57,839 bases of DNA from a virus (taxonomy: Duplodnaviria > Caudoviricetes), in IMG/VR virus record IMGVR_UViG_3300042569_000835, positions 1-57,839 of that record. One strand, 5' to 3'. The translations under genes and the position numbers were made by a program. Positions 23,596 to 41,173 of this stretch are shown piece by piece. Position 1 is the first letter of the stretch. Each line of letters opens with the position of its first letter. The notes under the pieces are model-generated. The model had not been told where the DNA came from. It did no database searches and was given only the letters and a program-made list of their open reading frames with translations.

Positions 23596-25370
23596 TAAAG
23601 ATTAAAGATTTAACTGTTAGAAACTTCATGAGTGTTGGGGCTCAGACTCAGGCTATCACATTTGATAAAGGTCAACTGACTCTTGTTCTAGGTGAGAATT
23701 TAGATCTAGGAGGCGACGATAGCGGTGCCCGCAATGGTACAGGTAAGACTACCATTATTAACGGACTCAGCTATGCTATCTACGGCACGGCCTTAACCAA
23801 CATCAAGAAAGACAACCTTGTTAACAAGATCAACAACAAAGGTATGTTGTGTACTGTAACATTTGAAAAAGACGGTCAAGAATATCATATCGAAAGAGGG
23901 CGTAAACCTAACGTACTCAAGTTTAGTGTTAACGGGCAAGAGCAGGCAACAGAAACAACCGACGAAGCACAGGGCGACAGTAGAGAAACACAAAAGGCCA
24001 TTGAAGAAGTATTTGGTATGAGTCATGAAATGTTCAAGCACCTCGTGGCATTGAACACGTATACTGAACCGTTCCTTAGCATGAAGGCTGCTGATCAACG
24101 GGCTGTTATTGAACAACTGTTAGGTATTACTCAGTTAAGTGAAAAAGCAGAGTCTCTTAAAGAAGCAATTAGAATCAGCAAAGACTCTATTGCAACTGAA
24201 AATACAAAAATAGAAACAATTAAAGCATCTAACGATCGAATTCAACAAAGTATCGAATCGTTAGAGCGCAAACAACGGCTGTGGGAAGAGCAACACGAAA
24301 CAGCTCTTACTAATTTGACCAAGGCAATAGAAAAACTTTTAGATATTAACATCGATGAAGAAATTGCCAATCAGAGATCACTAGTTGAATGGACAAAAAG
24401 CAAAAAGGAACGTGATAGCCTAACCGCTTTAATTGCCAAACAAACTAGTACACTAGAACGTGAACAAAAGAATTTAGACAAGTTAGAACGTGAATTAACA
24501 ACACTAGCAGATCACAAGTGTCATAGCTGTGGTCAAGACATTCACGATGTCAAGCATGACGAAATGATGACCGCAAAGGTCAAACAGGTCGAAGAAAGCC
24601 ACGGTCATATTAAAACGTATAGTGAAGAACTAAGTGAGCTTAACGAAGCTATTAGTTTAGTTAGTGAGCTTGGTGCTTGCCCAAGTGTCATTTACGACAA
24701 TCTAGAACAGGCACTAAATCATAAAAACACACTTAGTGGACTAGAGCGTGATCTGGAAGTAAAGGTTAACGAAAACAATCCTTATGTTGAACAGATTAGC
24801 GAATTGCAAAACACAGCGGTACAGGAAATCAATTATAATAATGTAAATGATCTAGTTAGAGTAAAAGATCATCAAGAATTCTTACACAAGTTATTAACTA
24901 ACAAAGATTCGTTTATTCGTAAGCGTATCATTGATCAGAATCTAGCATATCTAAATCAGCGATTGACCTATTATCTAGATAAAATAGGTCTCCCTCACTT
25001 GGTAGAATTTCAAAATGACCTAAGTGTTATTATTACACAATTAGGTCAAGACTTAGACTTTGATAATTTAAGCCGAGGCGAACGTAATCGCTTGATATTA
25101 TCAATGTCATGGGCATTTCGTGATGTGTGGGAAAATCTATATCAAGCTATTAACTTACTATTCATTGACGAACTAGTTGATTCGGGCATGGATGCTAGTG
25201 GTGTTGAATCTAGTATTGCAGTTCTTAAGAAGATGACCCGTGAACGCAACAAGAATGTGTTCTTGATTTCGCATAGGGATGACTTAACCAGTAGGGTAAA
25301 TCATGTGCTTAAGGTGATTAAAGAAAACGGATTCACTAGTTATTCAACAGATGTGGAGATTGTTGATTGA
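23592..25370 (+). CDS. gp46: Recombination ATPase subunit (Rad50/SbcC-like)
   Basis: Walker A NGTGKTT, coiled coil with CHSC zinc hook, signature LSRGE, Walker B LLFIDE, ISH motif. Confidence 0.93.
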   Translation: MIKIKDLTVRNFMSVGAQTQAITFDKGQLTLVLGENLDLGGDDSGARNGTGKTTIINGLSYAIYGTALTNIKKDNLVNKINNKGMLCTVTFEKDGQEYHIERGRKPNVLKFSVNGQEQATETTDEAQGDSRETQKAIEEVFGMSHEMFKHLVALNTYTEPFLSMKAADQRAVIEQLLGITQLSEKAESLKEAIRISKDSIATENTKIETIKASNDRIQQSIESLERKQRLWEEQHETALTNLTKAIEKLLDINIDEEIANQRSLVEWTKSKKERDSLTALIAKQTSTLEREQKNLDKLERELTTLADHKCHSCGQDIHDVKHDEMMTAKVKQVEESHGHIKTYSEELSELNEAISLVSELGACPSVIYDNLEQALNHKNTLSGLERDLEVKVNENNPYVEQISELQNTAVQEINYNNVNDLVRVKDHQEFLHKLLTNKDSFIRKRIIDQNLAYLNQRLTYYLDKIGLPHLVEFQNDLSVIITQLGQDLDFDNLSRGERNRLILSMSWAFRDVWENLYQAINLLFIDELVDSGMDASGVESSIAVLKKMTRERNKNVFLISHRDDLTSRVNHVLKVIKENGFTSYSTDVEIVD

Positions 25371-25597
25371 CCACAGAAAGCCACGACAAAATGATTGCTG
25401 CTTTTCAGGAATATTTTAAGTGGCAGGAACGATTTGAATACAAAGGCTCTGACGAAGCAGGCATTAAGGCAAGATATTGGCTCAGCGAAATACGCAATGA
25501 AGCCAGTATCAGAAGAGTAGAAATACAGGCAAAGCGTGAAGAACGCAAACAAGCCAGAAAAGGCATGATAGGCAGACCCAAGAAACTAACTAAGTGA
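25367..25597 (+). CDS. Small basic helical protein, Hc1 (histone H1-like) family-like
   Basis: TTG start overlapping the gp46 stop; FEYKGSDEAGIKARYWLSEIRNEASIRRVEIQ resembles the KGNxxAGxRAR pattern; basic C-terminal tail. Confidence 0.5.
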   Translation: MTTESHDKMIAAFQEYFKWQERFEYKGSDEAGIKARYWLSEIRNEASIRRVEIQAKREERKQARKGMIGRPKKLTK

Positions 25598-26026
25598 ATG
25601 TCATGGTACTATCAAGATCAACTAATCGAACACCTTCCCGAAGAATGCGTGGGATTTGTTTATCTTATTACTAATATTACCACTGGCAGAAAATACATAG
25701 GCAAAAAACTAGCCAAATTCTCCAAGACTAGCTATAAAACAGTAAAATTAAAAAACGGCACTAAAAAGAAAAAGAAGATACGTTCTAAAATAGACAGCGA
25801 TTGGCGTGATTATTACGGGTCAAACGTTGAATTAAGCAAGGACGTAGAACAATTAGGCAAAGAAAACTTCCGTAGAGACATACTATTTTACTGCACATCC
25901 AAGGCGCAATGCTCATATATAGAAGCTAGAGAACAATTCACCCACAAAGTTTTAGAATCAAAAGACTATTATAACGGTCAGATTTCTGTCCGTGTACATG
26001 GTTCGCATATACTCAAAGGCCAATAA
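25598..26026 (+). CDS. Stand-alone GIY-YIG (Seg-like) endonuclease
   Basis: GFVYLITN...KYIGKK, YYGS, ENFRRDIL, YIEAREQ (catalytic Glu) and YYNG; 142 aa, catalytic domain only. Confidence 0.85.
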   Translation: MSWYYQDQLIEHLPEECVGFVYLITNITTGRKYIGKKLAKFSKTSYKTVKLKNGTKKKKKIRSKIDSDWRDYYGSNVELSKDVEQLGKENFRRDILFYCTSKAQCSYIEAREQFTHKVLESKDYYNGQISVRVHGSHILKGQ

Positions 26027-26040
26027 TTCAGGCAATTTAA

Positions 26041-26348
26041 CTGCCAAATAAGCCCGCACCGGCGTTGTTAGTGTGCCCTTAAAGCTGGATCTCGGATCGC
26101 AGTCAATGGAATTCCCTACTTGGCAGAGGGGTTGTACAGTAGTATCCTTAACAGGACCACAATCGGATATGCCTACAGAACCGGTTTACTGTACAAGAAA
26201 GTATTATATCAAGGCTAAAGATGGGAGAAAAACCCACGGTTGTTATGCAAGACTGCGTTTGTGTAGCAATCCGCCGTCATTAATAAGACTTGGCTCGAGG
26301 TACCGGATGACCGCCTCTGTAATCGCCATAACGCCGTATGTACTGTGC
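26041..26348 (+). ncRNA. Candidate large structured non-coding RNA, family not recognised
   Basis: Closing helix 26060-26068/26328-26336; perfect 10-bp helix 26132-26141/26187-26196; 15-bp helix with four G-U pairs at 26237-26273; several short hairpins; 7-bp loop pairing 26098-26104/26251-26257. Boundaries approximate. Confidence 0.7.
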
Positions 26349-26427
26349 AACTCGCATAATGCTTCTTAGCCCGCAAGGGCTAAGTATGACTGAACAATCT
26401 GCATAATACTTAAATTGCTTCGCAATT
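26336..26427 (+). repeat. Two imperfect direct repeats (47-nt period), each followed by a hairpin
   Basis: ACTGTGCAACTCGCATAATGCTT (26342-26364) vs ACTGAACAATCTGCATAATACTT (26389-26411), 17/23 identical; hairpins at 26365-26384 and 26413-26427. Confidence 0.75.
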
Positions 26428-26458
26428 ACAATAGTCAACAATGTTTAGAAGAAAGAAA

Positions 26459-26502
26459 ATTCGTTGAGCGATAGCGATAACGAATGTGAGCTTCAGCTCA
26501 CA
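26459..26502. other. Two adjacent hairpins, one containing GAGCGATAGCGA
   Basis: ATTCGTT/AACGAAT (26459-26485) and TGTGAGC-TTCA-GCTCACA (26485-26502). Confidence 0.7.
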
Positions 26503-26507
26503 ATACA

Positions 26508-26514
26508 ATAAATA
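26508..26514 (+). promoter_or_regulatory. Late promoter (ATAAATA)
   Basis: TAAATA core 21 nt upstream of the ATG at 26536. Confidence 0.7.
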
Positions 26515-26535
26515 ACATACTATCTGTGAGTAAAC

Positions 26536-28005
26536 ATGCGTGTAAGCAATATATTATTTGAACAACATATGAATAATTCTAATAAAATTCTATTAGAATC
26601 ATGTCATGGCCTTGATCAAGAACAACGTGTAGTCGTTGAAGGCATTTATAATGAATTACTGCCTTTAATCGAAGCTAGTCTTAGTCCCGATCAAATCAAA
26701 TCTATATTTGGTGCTGTAGAAAAGTCTGCTACTGACGCAGGCGGTAATAGAACCATGTTAGGCAAGGGCGTTGATGTCGGTAAGAAAGCCAACGAAATTG
26801 TTGATAACATAGGCAAGTGGCTACAAAACACAACTCCGGTTAAGGCTTTTGATCAAAAGTTTGATGATTTAAAAAGAAAAATTAATACTAAATTTCCAGA
26901 TTCAAAAATACTAGATGCTGTATCTAACATGGGCATATGGGCTCAAGAGAATCCTGGAAAAACCGCAGCAATTATTGGAGTACTTACTGCTATTGCTTCA
27001 TTGGCAGGCGGGCCAGTTGGAGGTGCAATTGCTGGTCAAGTGCTGCGGGGATCTGTAGAATTACTCAAAGGTGAAAAACTTTCCACAGCCATTGGCAAAG
27101 GTGTTAAGACAGCGGCCTACGGTTTCATTGCTGGCAAGACATTTGAACTATTAGGCGATGCAATCAAAGACGGTGCGCAAGTAGTCAAAGATAACTTATT
27201 TCCAAACGCTCTTCGCCTAAATATGAAATCTGTTTTTGATGAAGTTGGCGGAGAACTAGGTACTCGTTGGGCTAATTTTGAAATTAAAGGTCTGGTAGGC
27301 AGGCCTGAAGACATAAACACTGCTAAAAAATTATTTGCCGAAGCTGGGCAATATTGGAAAGCAGGCGATTATGAACAAAGTGCAGCCACTTGGAAATCGT
27401 TAGAAGGCATGATTGCCGATACATTTAAAGATCCGGAATACATAGCTCAGATAGCCTCTGACCAAGCTAGCAGAACAATGATTAGTCAAGCAGCACAGGC
27501 TGCTCAAGAAGCTACAAAATATCTCGGAGCGGCTGCACAAGGTGCTGTAGCTGCTGCTGGAACTAAAGGCAGTCTAGCTAAAAAAGAATCAATAACCCGC
27601 CAAACTCGCCCGTTAAGCGAAGGTCAAGTATATTTAATATTCAATCGTGTTGTATCTTCGCAGCTCAATGAAGGGCCAATGGATGCTATTAAAGGCTTTG
27701 CCGGCAAGGCTATGGACAAAGTTCGAACAGCGGGCACTAACTTAACAACTAAAATTACCGCAGACAAATTAAATTCAGCTTGGCAAAAAGCAGGAGCTCC
27801 CGCTGACAGTGAAGAACTTAAAAAGTTTTTAATCAGTCAGGGAGTTGATGCTACTGTAATAGATACAGTATATAAATCTTTAAAGATAGTTGGTGGAGCT
27901 GCATCTGTTTATGCACAAGTTAAAACAGACCTAGCTAACCTAGATAAGAAAAGCAAACAACGCCTTGCATCCTACCTACAAAAACAATTAGGAACCGTAA
28001 AATGA
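26536..28005 (+). CDS. Hypothetical late protein, probable internal head / ejection protein
   Basis: 489-aa ORF behind a late promoter, with several (I/L)xE sites and a hydrophobic Gly-zipper segment. Confidence 0.6.
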   Translation: MRVSNILFEQHMNNSNKILLESCHGLDQEQRVVVEGIYNELLPLIEASLSPDQIKSIFGAVEKSATDAGGNRTMLGKGVDVGKKANEIVDNIGKWLQNTTPVKAFDQKFDDLKRKINTKFPDSKILDAVSNMGIWAQENPGKTAAIIGVLTAIASLAGGPVGGAIAGQVLRGSVELLKGEKLSTAIGKGVKTAAYGFIAGKTFELLGDAIKDGAQVVKDNLFPNALRLNMKSVFDEVGGELGTRWANFEIKGLVGRPEDINTAKKLFAEAGQYWKAGDYEQSAATWKSLEGMIADTFKDPEYIAQIASDQASRTMISQAAQAAQEATKYLGAAAQGAVAAAGTKGSLAKKESITRQTRPLSEGQVYLIFNRVVSSQLNEGPMDAIKGFAGKAMDKVRTAGTNLTTKITADKLNSAWQKAGAPADSEELKKFLISQGVDATVIDTVYKSLKIVGGAASVYAQVKTDLANLDKKSKQRLASYLQKQLGTVK

Positions 28006-40699: not shown

Positions 40700-40704
40700 A
40701 AGTA

Positions 40705-40752
40705 TCTAGAAATGATTTATGCGGTACCCTCCGCGTAGACCTAGAACGTCAT
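40705..40752 (+). promoter_or_regulatory. Candidate structured 5' UTR element
   Basis: Stem TTATGCGG/CCGCGTAG (40717-40738) plus TCTAG/CTAGA and GAC/GTC pairings before the AAGGAG site. Confidence 0.45.
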
Positions 40753-40768
40753 ATTAAGGAGAAACAAA

Positions 40769-41173
40769 ATGGGACGTCCATTAAGAAAAGATGTAAACGG
40801 TGTTGATGTAATTGGAACACCTTCAAGCGCAACAGGTGTTAGAGTTGAAGCATATGTTGGTACAACAGCCTATACTGATGCTACATACAACAACTCAACA
40901 AACTATGCCTATATCTACAAGCAGCGTGGTGCAAAAACTTTTACATTGAAAAATCAAGCAGGTACAAATCTTGGACCTTGCGTATTGCAAGCAGCAATTC
41001 CTTCCGCTACCGGTCAAATGAGAATCAACGGATACATTGGTGGAAACGGGTCTGTTCCAACACCATTGGCTAAGATTAACAAGCGTACAGCCAAAGATTT
41101 TAACGGTGTTCGTTATACATGGCAGCTTGTAAACGATTCTACATCTGACTACATTGTGCTAACAGCAGTTTAA
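40769..41173 (+). CDS. Putative virion structural protein (possible head decoration)
   Basis: 134-aa ORF with a strong ribosome-binding site and late promoter, near the capsid gene; IYKQRGAKTF motif. Confidence 0.55.
   Translation: MGRPLRKDVNGVDVIGTPSSATGVRVEAYVGTTAYTDATYNNSTNYAYIYKQRGAKTFTLKNQAGTNLGPCVLQAAIPSATGQMRINGYIGGNGSVPTPLAKINKRTAKDFNGVRYTWQLVNDSTSDYIVLTAV

What the first reader, a model, noticed from the sequence alone, without database searches (positions are those of the whole stretch)
26041..26348. Ornate ~300-nt RNA with two multiway junctions and probable pseudoknots
Pairings found by eye: outer helix CGGCGTTGT 26060-68 / ATAACGCCG 26328-36, extendable by GCAC/GTGC; hairpins GATC-TCG-GATC (26088-98) and TCCCT/AGGGG (26113-31). 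A three-way junction closed by TTGTACAGTA/TACTGTACAA contains TCCT/AGGA and AATCGG/CCGGTT. A four-way junction closed by GGCTAA 26213-18 / TTGGCT 26290-95 contains TGGG/CCCA, a 15-bp stem and GTC/GAC; GAGG-tac-CGG-atga-CCG-CCTC follows. Long-range complements: GACTGCG 26251-57 with CGCAGTC 26098-104, TTGGCAG 26120-26 with CTGCCAA 26041-47, TACAGA 26174-79 with TCTGTA 26316-21. The many G-U pairs work only on the + strand, which points to RNA rather than DNA palindromes. The region is visibly GC-richer than its flanks, and I cannot match it to a family I know.
Basis: partly seen in the sequence, partly recalled or inferred. Interest (0 to 1): 0.88.

Follow-up and report, generated by a model that had tools for sequence, protein, structure and literature searches.

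The report
Extended Polynucleobacter-1 RNA in a phage
The region is a real, heavily knotted non-coding RNA of a giant freshwater T4-like phage whose first third is an already catalogued RNA family of unknown function, while the rest, including two short repeats that always mutate together, has not been described.

Summary
Window 26051-26196 is a full-length match to Rfam RF01718, Polynucleobacter-1 RNA (81.6 bits, cut-off 37). The conserved element is far longer, about 26036-26502. It has the RF01718 5' domain, an unmodelled 3' domain (26197-26345), and a tail of two direct-repeat boxes and hairpins. Among 154 unique homologues from viral contigs, most local helices covary. The 98-aa ORF is not conserved.

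The RNA follows a small GIY-YIG nuclease gene behind gp47/gp46 in T4-like phage records (up to 355 kb). RF01718 also occurs in Polynucleobacter chromosomes, with a different middle domain but a homologous tail. The 7-nt cores of the two tail boxes are identical in 154 of 154 homologues, despite at least 51 inferred changes. No complementary partner was found.

Function is unknown. I favour a stand-alone structured RNA rather than a leader. It is a new variant of a known kind.

The parts
25598..26026 (+). Upstream neighbour: a 142-aa stand-alone GIY-YIG nuclease-domain protein (SegE-like).
   Evidence: Pfam PF19835 at 2.9e-32, covering residues 3-129 against profile positions 1-123 of 123. PHROG 447. 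It lies directly upstream on the same strand in all 50 first-set loci.
26036..26502 (+). The whole conserved non-coding RNA element: 5' domain, 3' domain and tail.
   Evidence: An nhmmer profile of 26036-26430 hits 217 of 311 fetched loci, 182 of them full-length. Hairpin H3 beyond 26430 is found in 89 of 147 homologues. The region is not coding.
26041..26047 (+). 5' strand of pseudoknot PKa. It pairs with 26120-26126, the loop of the P3 hairpin.
   Evidence: 6 of 7 pairs change on both sides; 0.77 canonical. Covariation at 26043:26124 and 26044:26123.
26051..26196 (+). 5' domain, which is Rfam RF01718 Polynucleobacter-1. Helices: P1 26056-60/72-76, P2 26085-91/95-102, P3 26113-17/27-31, P4 26132-41/87-96, P5 26145-47/54-56, P6 26161-66/81-86. 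Also a small pairing 26052-54/26061-63.
   Evidence: cmscan 81.6 bits against a cut-off of 37, model positions 1-141 of 141. Helix counts.
26197..26345 (+). Phage-type 3' domain, not in Rfam. Helices: P8 26222-25/33-36, P9 26238-50/59-71, Hc 26291-94/26325-28, Hd 26297-300/26314-17. Pseudoknots: Ha 26252-57/26332-37 and Hb 26276-80/26307-11.
   Evidence: On alignment A1 (37 sequences): 88.7% of cells paired against 69.7% when shuffled; 29 of 35 pairs change on both sides; covariation score 0.571 against 0.221; 0 of 500 shuffles reach it; slid controls 0.08-0.13. Covariance model R1 scores the window at 114.3 bits.
26350..26361 (+). Tail box A (ACTC + 7-nt variable core + G).
   Evidence: Its core is identical to that of box B in 154 of 154 unique homologues at the four variable columns, with at least 51 parsimony changes.
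26365..26384 (+). Hairpin H1, between the two boxes (GCAA loop in the window).
   Evidence: 0.80 canonical; 3 of 8 pairs change on both sides.
26397..26408 (+). Tail box B (ATCT + the same 7-nt core + A).
   Evidence: One module per genome in 5 large phage records. Only one in the window.
26413..26427 (+). Hairpin H2.
   Evidence: 6 of 6 pairs change on both sides.
26460..26484 (+). Hairpin H3: a conserved GAGCG-N-GCGA interior closed by a covarying stem.
   Evidence: The motif is present in 89 of 147 homologues that have enough downstream sequence, with different closing stems. It aligns with the chromosomal Polynucleobacter copies.
26485..26502 (+). Hairpin H4, the last structured piece before the next gene.
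   Evidence: Read directly from the sequence. The same palindrome was flagged, for the opposite strand, by the terminator scan. Conservation was not quantified.
26536..28005 (+). Downstream neighbour: a 489-aa ORF of a hypervariable set.
   Evidence: No Pfam or PHROG family. 142 of 207 loci have a same-strand ORF within 450 nt, falling into 31 clusters.

Best explanation
SHOWN.
- 26036-26502 encodes a + strand, non-coding, modular structured RNA. It is a phage-borne, extended member of the Polynucleobacter-1 family.
- It has three modules:
  1. The RF01718 5' domain, with a pseudoknot to the 5' leader.
  2. A doubly pseudoknotted 3' domain specific to the phage lineage.
  3. A tail (box A, hairpin, box B, hairpins) that is shared with the chromosomal Polynucleobacter version.
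- The Rfam model describes only the first module.

INFERRED (about 0.4 on its own).
- It acts as a stand-alone structured RNA, not as a leader of the next gene.
- It would be made by read-through from the gp47-gp46-nuclease genes, or from a promoter that I could not see. Its conserved tertiary fold would serve as a scaffold for a protein or ligand.
- The two tail boxes work as a pair that must carry the same 7-nt word. This implies that each box is read against the other, or against a copy of the other. Candidate mechanisms are realignment of a nascent strand across hairpin H1, strand exchange between the two sites, or like-with-like parallel pairing.
- The adjacent nuclease is most simply the phage's structure-specific recombination nuclease, and a positional neighbour only.
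For: Identity:
- RF01718 at 81.6 bits, full-length.

RNA rather than protein or DNA:
- Covariation in 13 helices. G-U cells 1116 against A-C cells 215. The ORF is open in only 5 of 154 homologues.

Length and modularity:
- 182 of 217 profile hits span the whole profile.
- The 3'-domain model R1 hits all 5 nuclease-less RF01718 loci. It hits none of the copies in the five other genus loci searched (L330-L332, L334, L335), two of which lie on chromosomal contigs.
- A profile of the chromosomal 3' region matches the phage loci only in the tail, profile positions about 196-383, E 7e-8 to 3e-3.

Not a leader:
- In 27 loci the convergent baseplate-hub gene ends only 267-410 nt after the RNA, so there is no downstream same-strand gene.
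- Where downstream ORFs exist, they fall into 31 unrelated clusters.

Independent of the nuclease:
- 10 of 68 unbiased nuclease loci lack the RNA.
- 3 loci have a PDDEXK_15 nuclease instead, and L259 has no nuclease upstream.
- The GIY-YIG protein occurs in 499 cultured-phage records. The three contexts inspected have no room for the RNA next to it, or show no sign of it.

Boxes:
- A equals B in 154 of 154 homologues, with at least 51 changes.
- A equals B in 5 of 6 chromosomal copies, and in 2 of 2 loci with a different RNA body.
- There is one module per genome.

Expression:
- Contigs from four RNA libraries of four studies lie on parts of 26039-26470. This is weak, because DNA can be present in such libraries.
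Against: - No transcript ends, promoter or terminator were established. The sigma-70 and terminator scans were at chance level.
- 142 of 207 loci do have a same-strand ORF starting about 90-110 nt after the profile end. The chromosomal copies also have one about 150 nt after the tail. A leader role in those genomes is therefore not excluded. The 2010 description rated the motif as probably cis-regulatory (table seen).
- The RNA abuts a small nuclease gene in 193 of 201 loci with enough upstream sequence. That is more than a casual neighbour would suggest, although most of those loci were found through the RNA itself.
- No mechanism for the box pairing was demonstrated. No A-to-B junction was reported in the four RNA runs laid (contigs only).
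- The fold is no more stable than shuffled sequence.
Confidence: 0.55

Rival explanations
1. Cis-regulatory 5' leader or riboswitch of the downstream gene. In the phages this would be the hypervariable ORFs with MK-x-x-[DE]-[IL]-I-type N-termini. In Polynucleobacter it would be the ORF-integrase pair. The tail hairpins would be the expression platform.
For: - The 2010 table rates the motif as probably cis-regulatory, with riboswitch status marked unknown.
- 142 of 207 loci have a same-strand ORF within 450 nt. In the cluster examples it starts 91-111 nt after the profile end.
- The chromosomal copies also have a same-strand ORF after the tail.
- The conserved hairpins run to 34 nt before the start codon at 26536.
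Against: - 27 loci have only a convergent late gene 267-410 nt downstream.
- The downstream ORFs fall into 31 unrelated clusters.
- No terminator-like U-run follows the hairpins on the + strand.
Confidence: 0.17
2. RNA partner of the adjacent catalytic-domain-only DNA enzymes: GIY-YIG or PDDEXK nuclease in phages, and a 188-aa tyrosine recombinase in Polynucleobacter. The two identical box cores would act as guide-like words that specify two DNA sites sharing a 7-bp core.
For: - The RNA abuts a small nuclease gene in 193 of 201 loci, with gaps mostly of -5 to +60 nt.
- Two different nuclease folds occupy that place.
- The GIY-YIG protein is catalytic domain only.
- 6 of 6 chromosomal copies have a 188-aa Phage_integrase-domain-only protein about 1.3-1.5 kb downstream on the same strand.
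- The like-with-like 7-nt cores have the length that I recall for tyrosine-recombinase overlap regions.
Against: - The GIY-YIG family is widespread without the RNA.
- 10 of 68 nuclease loci lack the RNA, and L259 has the RNA without a nuclease.
- No PF00589 gene is present in the window or in 5 large phage records, 3 of which are 99-100% complete.
- No third site with the same core lies downstream in the phages: 33 occurrences against 20.6 expected, with no shared context.
- No binding was tested.
Confidence: 0.1
3. A self-processing RNA (ribozyme). The complex double-pseudoknot fold would catalyse cleavage or ligation at the two boxes, releasing or skipping the H1 unit.
For: - The size and knottedness are comparable to large ribozymes: four long-range pairings in about 300 nt.
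- The two boxes have invariant flanks and stand at a fixed place after the fold.
Against: - No match to any ribozyme family, group I introns included, at E up to 10.
- No complement to the box cores lies within the RNA body.
- No junction was reported in the RNA contigs.
Confidence: 0.08
4. Primarily a DNA-level element: a recombination or insertion hotspot, a homing target next to free-standing endonuclease genes, or an origin. The boxes would be crossover or iteron-like sites.
For: - Fixed position with cassette-like variation on both sides. The upstream gene is GIY-YIG or PDDEXK. Different RNA bodies carry the same tail. There are 0-3 downstream ORFs.
- An integrase sits beside the chromosomal copies, and one genome has two copies about 18 kb apart.
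- One chromosomal locus has a third box-like site beyond the integrase gene.
Against: - The helices tolerate G-U but not A-C (1116 against 215 cells), which points to selection on the + strand RNA.
- The boxes are only 47-58 bp apart, too close for excision, from what I recall of DNA looping.
- The nuclease lacks a DNA-binding domain and is a near-constant gene rather than sporadic.
Confidence: 0.07
5. The 98-aa ORF 26073-26369 is a protein-coding gene.
For: It is open in the window.
Against: - Open for 90 aa or more in only 5 of 154 homologues.
- 2269 indel runs are not divisible by three, against 309 that are.
- Variation by codon position is flat: 0.245, 0.224, 0.222.
- No Pfam or PHROG family.
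Confidence: 0.01

Closest known systems
Rfam RF01718, Polynucleobacter-1 RNA (Weinberg et al. 2010, Genome Biol 11:R31; table entry seen)
   Same: 26051-26196 matches the whole 141-position model at 81.6 bits. The same helices covary. The setting is freshwater and Burkholderiales.
   Different: The model stops after the first module. The phage RNA continues for about 300 nt more, with a doubly pseudoknotted domain and a tail. The chromosomal copies continue for about 430 nt with a different middle and a homologous tail. A 5' pseudoknot strand (26041-47) lies outside the model.
Large structured non-coding RNAs of unknown function in bacteria and phages, such as GOLLD, ROOL, OLE and HEARO (recalled; not tested here)
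   Same: Several hundred nucleotides, many covarying helices and pseudoknots, links to phages or mobile elements, and no known function.
   Different: No sequence or model match to any of them at Rfam thresholds. This RNA is modular, with exchangeable middle domains, and it carries the paired boxes.
Systems that require two identical short words: overlap regions of tyrosine-recombinase sites, take-off and landing codons of T4 gene 60 translational bypass, and leader/body transcription-regulating sequences of nidoviruses (all recalled)
   Same: Two direct copies of a short word must be identical while the word itself is free to vary. In gene 60 the copies are also about 50 nt apart, with a hairpin after the first.
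   Different: - No reading frame is conserved through the boxes. The spacing is 47-58 nt, so the frame varies.
- No recombinase is found in the phages.
- No jump product was observed.
This is a resemblance in logic only. Membership is not claimed.
T4 free-standing Seg homing endonucleases beside RNA genes, for example SegB in the tRNA cluster (recalled)
   Same: A GIY-YIG gene of the SegE Pfam family lies next to a conserved structured-RNA gene in a T4-like phage.
   Different: The protein is 142 aa, catalytic domain only. It is present in all 50 first-set loci and in 499 cultured-phage records, one place per record. It is replaced in some loci by a PDDEXK_15 nuclease that PHROGs labels a Holliday-junction resolvase. 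This fits a housekeeping recombination nuclease better than a mobile homing gene.

Membership tests
Rfam RF01718 Polynucleobacter-1 RNA | Covariance-model score at or above the curated gathering score (37 bits). | tested here: met
   81.6 bits, E 8.6e-16. Same result in the local search.
Rfam RF01718 Polynucleobacter-1 RNA | The match covers the whole model, on one strand. | tested here: met
   Model positions 1-141 of 141, + strand, not truncated.
Rfam RF01718 Polynucleobacter-1 RNA | The model's helices are kept by compensatory change among homologues. | tested here: met
   P1: 5 of 5 pairs. P4: 9 of 10 pairs. P6: 4 of 6 pairs. All with changes on both sides across 154 homologues.
Rfam RF01718 Polynucleobacter-1 RNA | Occurrence in Polynucleobacter/Burkholderiales and in fresh water. 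| tested here: met
   13 of 121 genomes of that genus are over the cut-off. DNA holders of the window are lake-water metagenomes.
Group I intron or other known ribozyme | Match to the family's covariance model. | tested here: not met
   No family other than RF01718, plus a chance miRNA hit at E 6.7, up to E 10 in 25200-26700.
tmRNA / tRNA | Detection by ARAGORN. | tested here: not met
   0 genes in the window.
Riboswitch or cis-regulatory leader | Consistently upstream of a same-strand gene, usually of a related function. | tested here: not met
   27 loci have no downstream same-strand gene before a convergent gene 267-410 nt away. Elsewhere the ORFs fall into 31 clusters.
Riboswitch or cis-regulatory leader | Ligand-dependent or signal-dependent change of downstream expression. 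| not testable with these tools
   Needs reporter assays or in-line probing.
Free-standing GIY-YIG homing endonuclease (for the neighbouring gene) | GIY-YIG catalytic domain joined to a DNA-binding domain. | tested here: not met
   The domain model covers residues 3-129 of 142, and there is no second domain.
Free-standing GIY-YIG homing endonuclease (for the neighbouring gene) | Sporadic presence among close relatives. | tested here: not met
   Present in 50 of 50 first-set loci and in 193 of 201 RNA loci with enough upstream sequence.

The most novel reading that the evidence does not exclude
The tail is a like-with-like reading device, and the RNA is a new kind of modular ribonucleoprotein RNA. 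Boxes A and B would each hold the same programmable 7-nt word so that two nucleic-acid sites with an identical core are brought together, or so that a polymerase is made to jump between them. The knotted body would serve as scaffold for catalytic-domain-only DNA enzymes: a small tyrosine recombinase in Polynucleobacter, and GIY-YIG or PDDEXK nucleases in the phages. This would be a functional analogue of bridge or guide RNAs, built on different enzymes.
Probability: 0.1. Interest if true: 0.92.

Novelty: new variant of a known kind. Interest (0 to 1): 0.62.

Why it matters
Polynucleobacter-1 has been in Rfam since 2010 as a 141-nt motif of unknown role. My full-text searches found no later study of it.

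- **Size and structure.** The motif is one module of a 470-nt-class RNA with at least four long-range pairings. That places it among the few large, complex bacterial and phage RNAs without a known function. It also gives correct boundaries for any experiment.
- **Host link.** The RNA connects 345-355 kb T4-like freshwater phages with Polynucleobacter chromosomes. This is a host-link clue for uncultured phages.
- **Modular exchange.** The same tail occurs with different bodies.
- **The paired boxes.** The two box cores change together in 154 of 154 sequences, over at least 51 inferred changes, and no complementary partner was found. Ordinary base-pairing does not produce that signature. Explaining it could reveal an unfamiliar mechanism.
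- **A route to experiment.** Polynucleobacter strains can be cultured (recalled), so the question is directly testable.

Tried and rejected
1. Thermodynamic support. The minimum-free-energy z-scores are +0.31 (+ strand) and -0.57 (- strand), which is not informative.

2. Known families for the 3' half. Nothing in Rfam up to E 10. No tRNA or tmRNA.

3. Similar DNA in cultured phages. Only a 75-nt stretch of the nuclease gene of Synechococcus phage S-SRM01 matched. In S-SRM01 the next annotated gene starts 88 nt after the nuclease gene. In Melnitz and phiN3 the gaps are about 150 and 30 nt. I did not run a covariance search on those three loci with RF01718. R1 found nothing in them.

4. Boxes as a genome-wide promoter or signal.
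   - AYYYGCATAATR with up to 1 mismatch gave 8 matches against 6.6 expected.
   - The longer B module occurs once in the window.
   - It occurs once per genome in 5 large records, with all other matches at control level.
   - The sigma-70 and terminator scans were at chance.

5. A complementary partner for the box cores.
   - No covarying column in the element.
   - The own-core complement is no more frequent than swapped cores. In the 320 nt downstream: 9 of 124 loci against a mean of 8.1. In the 700 nt upstream plus the RNA body: 0 of 131 against a mean of 3.1.
   - Exact 10-mer complements on the same strand: 6 hits, at inconsistent places inside coding genes.

6. Boxes as attL/attR of downstream cassettes in the phages. 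There were 33 further core copies against 20.6 expected, with no shared context.

7. A tyrosine recombinase in the phages. None in the window or in 5 large records.

8. A small ORF or translational bypass through the boxes. The spacing varies from 47 to 58 nt and no frame is conserved.

9. Expression.
   - In the four RNA runs laid, no contig covered 26471-26900, and none covered 25502-25654.
   - By the tool's own caution, absence of cover proves nothing. I do not use it as evidence.
   - The contigs show neither ends nor strand.

10. Cellular origin of the pattern hits in genome contigs. 8 of 14 were real, and all lie on contigs of metagenome-assembled genomes. The seven with enough flanking sequence carry phage genes, so they are most likely mis-binned phage DNA. 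The other 6 were chance.

12. Supplements of the 2010 paper (motif drawings and gene contexts) and of the 2023 catalogue of viral structured RNAs could not be opened. They may already show longer versions or list this element.
   - For the 2010 paper I saw one table passage.
   - For the 2023 paper I saw five passages.
   - Other titles are known from search listings only.
Full report
**What is at the coordinates**

A scan of the whole window against Rfam 15 gave two matches above curated thresholds. One is RF01718, Polynucleobacter-1 RNA, at 26051-26196 on the + strand. It scores 81.6 bits against a gathering score of 37, and it matches model positions 1-141 of 141. A permissive local search of 25200-26700 up to E 10 found nothing else except a chance miRNA hit at E 6.7. 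So the 5' half of the finding belongs to a known family, and the 3' half matches no described family.

The predicted fold is no more stable than shuffled sequence. The z-score is +0.31, and 61 of 100 shuffles fold at least as well. The minus strand gives -0.57. The region is GC-richer than its flanks: 48.1% against 37.7% and 39.6%.

**Genome and neighbours**

The window is a virus record of 57,839 bases, estimated 16% complete. Upstream lie four genes on the same strand:
- homologues of T4 gp47 and gp46 (SbcD-like and SbcC-like);
- a 76-aa ORF;
- a 142-aa protein that is wholly covered by the SegE GIY-YIG catalytic-domain model (PF19835, 2.9e-32).

Downstream lie two ORFs without any family match (489 aa and 362 aa), and then a baseplate-hub gene on the other strand.

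**Homologues**

- A pattern from the 5' domain fetched 119 viral-contig loci. An nhmmer search with 26031-26400 hit 50 of them, most over the whole query.
- Two further scans added 80 loci found with the nuclease protein and 112 new loci found with a 3'-domain pattern.
- A profile of 26036-26430 then hit 217 of 311 loci, 182 of them over its whole length.
- After removing identical copies, 154 unique full-length sequences remained. At below 95% identity, 137 remained.
- The host contigs reach 345-355 kb.

**Coding or RNA**

In the stretch equivalent to the 98-aa ORF, only 5 of 154 homologues keep 90 or more open codons. Indel runs relative to the window are 2269 not divisible by three, against 309 divisible. 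Variability is flat across codon positions (0.245, 0.224, 0.222). In the supported helices there are 1116 G-U cells against 215 A-C cells. The selected product is therefore an RNA read from the + strand.

**Structure**

I used mutual information on the 154-sequence alignment and per-helix counts.

5' domain. The supported helices are:

| Helix | Positions |
|---|---|
| P1 | 26056-60/26072-76 |
| P2 | 26085-91/26095-102 |
| P4 | 26132-41/26187-96 |
| P5 | 26145-47/26154-56 |
| P6 | 26161-66/26181-86 |
| small pairing | 26052-54/26061-63 |

3' domain. The supported helices are:

| Helix | Positions |
|---|---|
| P8 | 26222-25/26233-36 |
| P9 | 26238-50/26259-71 |
| Hc | 26291-94/26325-28 |
| Hd | 26297-300/26314-17 |
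| pseudoknot Ha | 26252-57 (P9 loop) with 26332-37 |
| pseudoknot Hb | 26276-80 with 26307-11 (Hd loop) |

I tested the 3' domain on a separate 37-sequence alignment with the counting tool:
- 88.7% of cells are paired, against 69.7% in shuffles.
- 29 of 35 pairs change on both sides.
- The covariation score is 0.571 against 0.221, reached by 0 of 500 shuffles.
- Sliding the partners by 1-3 columns drops the score to 0.08-0.13.
- Ha has 6 of 6 pairs with compensatory change, and Hc has 4 of 4.

- outer helix: 0.46 canonical;
- four-way-junction closure: 0.54;
- 26251-57/26098-104: 0.57;
- 26174-79/26316-21: 0.56.

GTC/GAC is invariant and competes with Hb.

Conservation continues through a tail:

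| Part | Positions |
|---|---|
| box A | 26350-61 |
| hairpin H1 | 26365-84 |
| box B | 26397-408 |
| hairpin H2 | 26413-27 |
| hairpin H3, with a conserved GAGCG-N-GCGA interior | 26460-84 |
| hairpin H4 | 26485-502 |

The two boxes are direct repeats with invariant flanks (ACTC...G and ATCT...A) around a 7-nt core.
- The four variable core positions are identical between A and B in 154 of 154 sequences.
- Ten different cores occur.
- A strict pattern found both boxes in 131 of 154 sequences, identical in all 131.
- On a tree built from the RNA body, the cores need at least 51 changes.
- I found no partner for the cores. No covarying column exists. The own-core complement is not enriched in the flanks relative to swapped cores. 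No consistent third copy lies downstream.
- The module is unique in the window and occurs once per genome in five large phage records.

**Association with the nuclease gene**

- All 50 first-set loci have the GIY-YIG gene directly upstream on the same strand.
- In the set fetched with the protein, which is unbiased for the RNA, 58 of 68 genes with at least 450 nt downstream are followed by the RNA. The other 10 have no RF01718 match.
- Of 201 RNA loci with at least 500 nt upstream, 8 lack the gene. Five of these are clear RF01718 copies.
- In three of those five, a PDDEXK_15 nuclease lies upstream in its place: directly upstream in two, and with an RNase H gene between it and the RNA in the third. 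PHROGs labels this nuclease a Holliday-junction resolvase.
- In one (L259) the neighbours are unrelated genes.
- The GIY-YIG protein has relatives in 499 cultured-phage records, at one place per record. The three contexts I looked at have no room for such an RNA next to it, or show no sign of one.

I read the nuclease as the structure-specific nuclease of the recombination module, and the adjacency as positional. This is an inference.

**Downstream genes**

- 142 of 207 loci have a same-strand ORF within 450 nt. These ORFs fall into 31 clusters. Many of the cluster examples share an N-terminus of the type MK-x-x-[DE]-[IL]-I. From memory, this resembles the capsid-targeting peptide of T4 internal proteins.
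- In 27 loci the convergent hub gene ends only 267-410 nt after the RNA, so nothing lies downstream to regulate.

**Cellular copies**

- A genome-contig scan found 8 true copies, all on contigs of metagenome-assembled genomes. Seven of them carry the phage genes in the flanking sequence held.
- A family search in the genus of one such bin found RF01718 over the cut-off in 13 of 121 genomes. Several hits lie on contigs of about 2 Mb, and some genomes have two copies.
- The phage 3'-domain model hits none of the copies in the other five genus loci searched (L330-L332, L334, L335), two of which lie on chromosomal contigs.
- Six chromosomal copies share their own conserved extension of about 430 nt. 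Its tail is homologous to the phage tail: nhmmer E 7e-8 to 3e-3, profile positions about 196-383.
- Their box cores are identical in 5 of 6 copies, using other words.
- All six lie between a divergent DUF6641 gene and, about 1.3-1.5 kb downstream, a 188-aa protein that is only a Phage_integrase catalytic domain.
- No such recombinase is found in the window or in five large phage records, three of them 99-100% complete.
- Two nuclease loci without RF01718 (L172, L133) carry a different non-coding body of about 330 nt. It is followed by the same box-hairpin-box tail, again with matching cores.

The family is therefore modular: a 5' domain, an exchangeable middle, and a conserved tail.

**Expression**

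DNA holders of the stretch are lake-water metagenomes. Six metatranscriptome runs hold small shares of it. In the four runs laid, from four studies, contigs lie on parts of 26039-26470 and on parts of the nuclease gene. Some contigs continue upstream into relatives' sequence. This shows presence in RNA libraries only. It shows neither ends nor strand.

**Interpretation**

The identity (RF01718 plus undescribed modules) and the RNA nature are well supported. Function is not shown.

I favour a stand-alone structured RNA at the end of the recombination-gene block over a leader, for three reasons:
- a fifth of the examined loci have no downstream gene;
- the downstream genes are unrelated to one another;
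- the same RNA occurs in quite different gene contexts.

The boxes need a mechanism in which one copy is read against the other. I list strand realignment, strand exchange and like-with-like pairing as candidates. None was demonstrated.

**Literature**

'Polynucleobacter-1' occurs in one paper of the library, and 'RF01718' in three. Of the three, only the 2010 discovery paper is about the motif. The passages I read of a 2023 catalogue of viral structured RNAs do not mention it. Supplements were closed.

Noticed in passing
window 40700-40771 (+): A second Rfam match: RF02980 freshwater-2 RNA, 50.4 bits against a cut-off of 49.9. It ends at an AAGGAG...ATG, that is, just upstream of a gene start.
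   Followed up: no
L172:3427-3862 and L133:3430-3896: Downstream of the same GIY-YIG gene these two loci carry a different conserved non-coding body of about 330 nt (90% identical to each other) with no Rfam match. It is followed by the same box A - hairpin - box B - hairpin tail, with matching cores (ACATGAA in both boxes). This is a candidate second RNA class that shares the tail.
   Followed up: partly
L156:2036-2194, L220:10533-10702, L278:9-187, L224:3566-3609: Weak matches to the 3'-domain model (20-32 bits) in loci without an RF01718 match. They keep the GGTACCGG...ACCGCC stretch, so they may be a diverged third variant.
   Followed up: partly
L233:3963-4484, L273:8819-9385, L218:1198-1719 (-): In these loci a PDDEXK_15 nuclease (PF24608; PHROG 244, labelled RusA-like resolvase) occupies the place of the GIY-YIG gene upstream of the RNA. 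This looks like a non-orthologous replacement in the recombination module. L218 also has an RNase H gene between the nuclease and the RNA.
   Followed up: yes
window 25598-26026 and public phage records: PHROG 447 and many GenBank records call this GIY-YIG domain protein 'NAD synthetase'. Pfam places it in SegE_GIY-YIG at 2.9e-32, so the name looks like an annotation error that has spread.
   Followed up: partly
window 26536-28005 and the first ORF after the RNA in 142 loci: The downstream ORFs are hypervariable (31 clusters). Many of the cluster examples begin MK-x-x-[DE]-[IL]-I..E, and these start about 91-111 nt after the RNA profile end. From memory this resembles T4 internal-protein capsid-targeting peptides and their cassette-like loci.
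   Followed up: partly
L259 (contig of 31,971 bases): This is a different phage-like context for the RNA. There is no nuclease upstream; an amidoligase-like ORF and a kinase-like ORF flank it. A permuted tmRNA (RF04321, 92.5 bits) and a tRNA lie about 3-4.5 kb upstream.
   Followed up: partly
L336-L341 (Polynucleobacter-genus chromosomal loci): A conserved cassette in 6 of 6 copies: DUF6641 gene (divergent) - RNA - ORF - 188-aa tyrosine-recombinase catalytic domain. One genome has two copies about 18 kb apart. In L337 a third box-like site with the same 8-mer and a similar right flank lies about 0.8 kb beyond the integrase gene.
   Followed up: partly
window 26145 and 26157: These two columns covary without forming a standard pair: T with C in 111 sequences and C with T in 43. 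They sit at the base of the P5 hairpin. This may be a register shift of an A-C mismatch or a non-canonical pair.
   Followed up: no
window 26276-26289: The invariant GTC...GAC local hairpin uses the same 5' strand as the covarying pseudoknot Hb (26276-80/26307-11). The two cannot form together, so this may be an alternative conformation.
   Followed up: no
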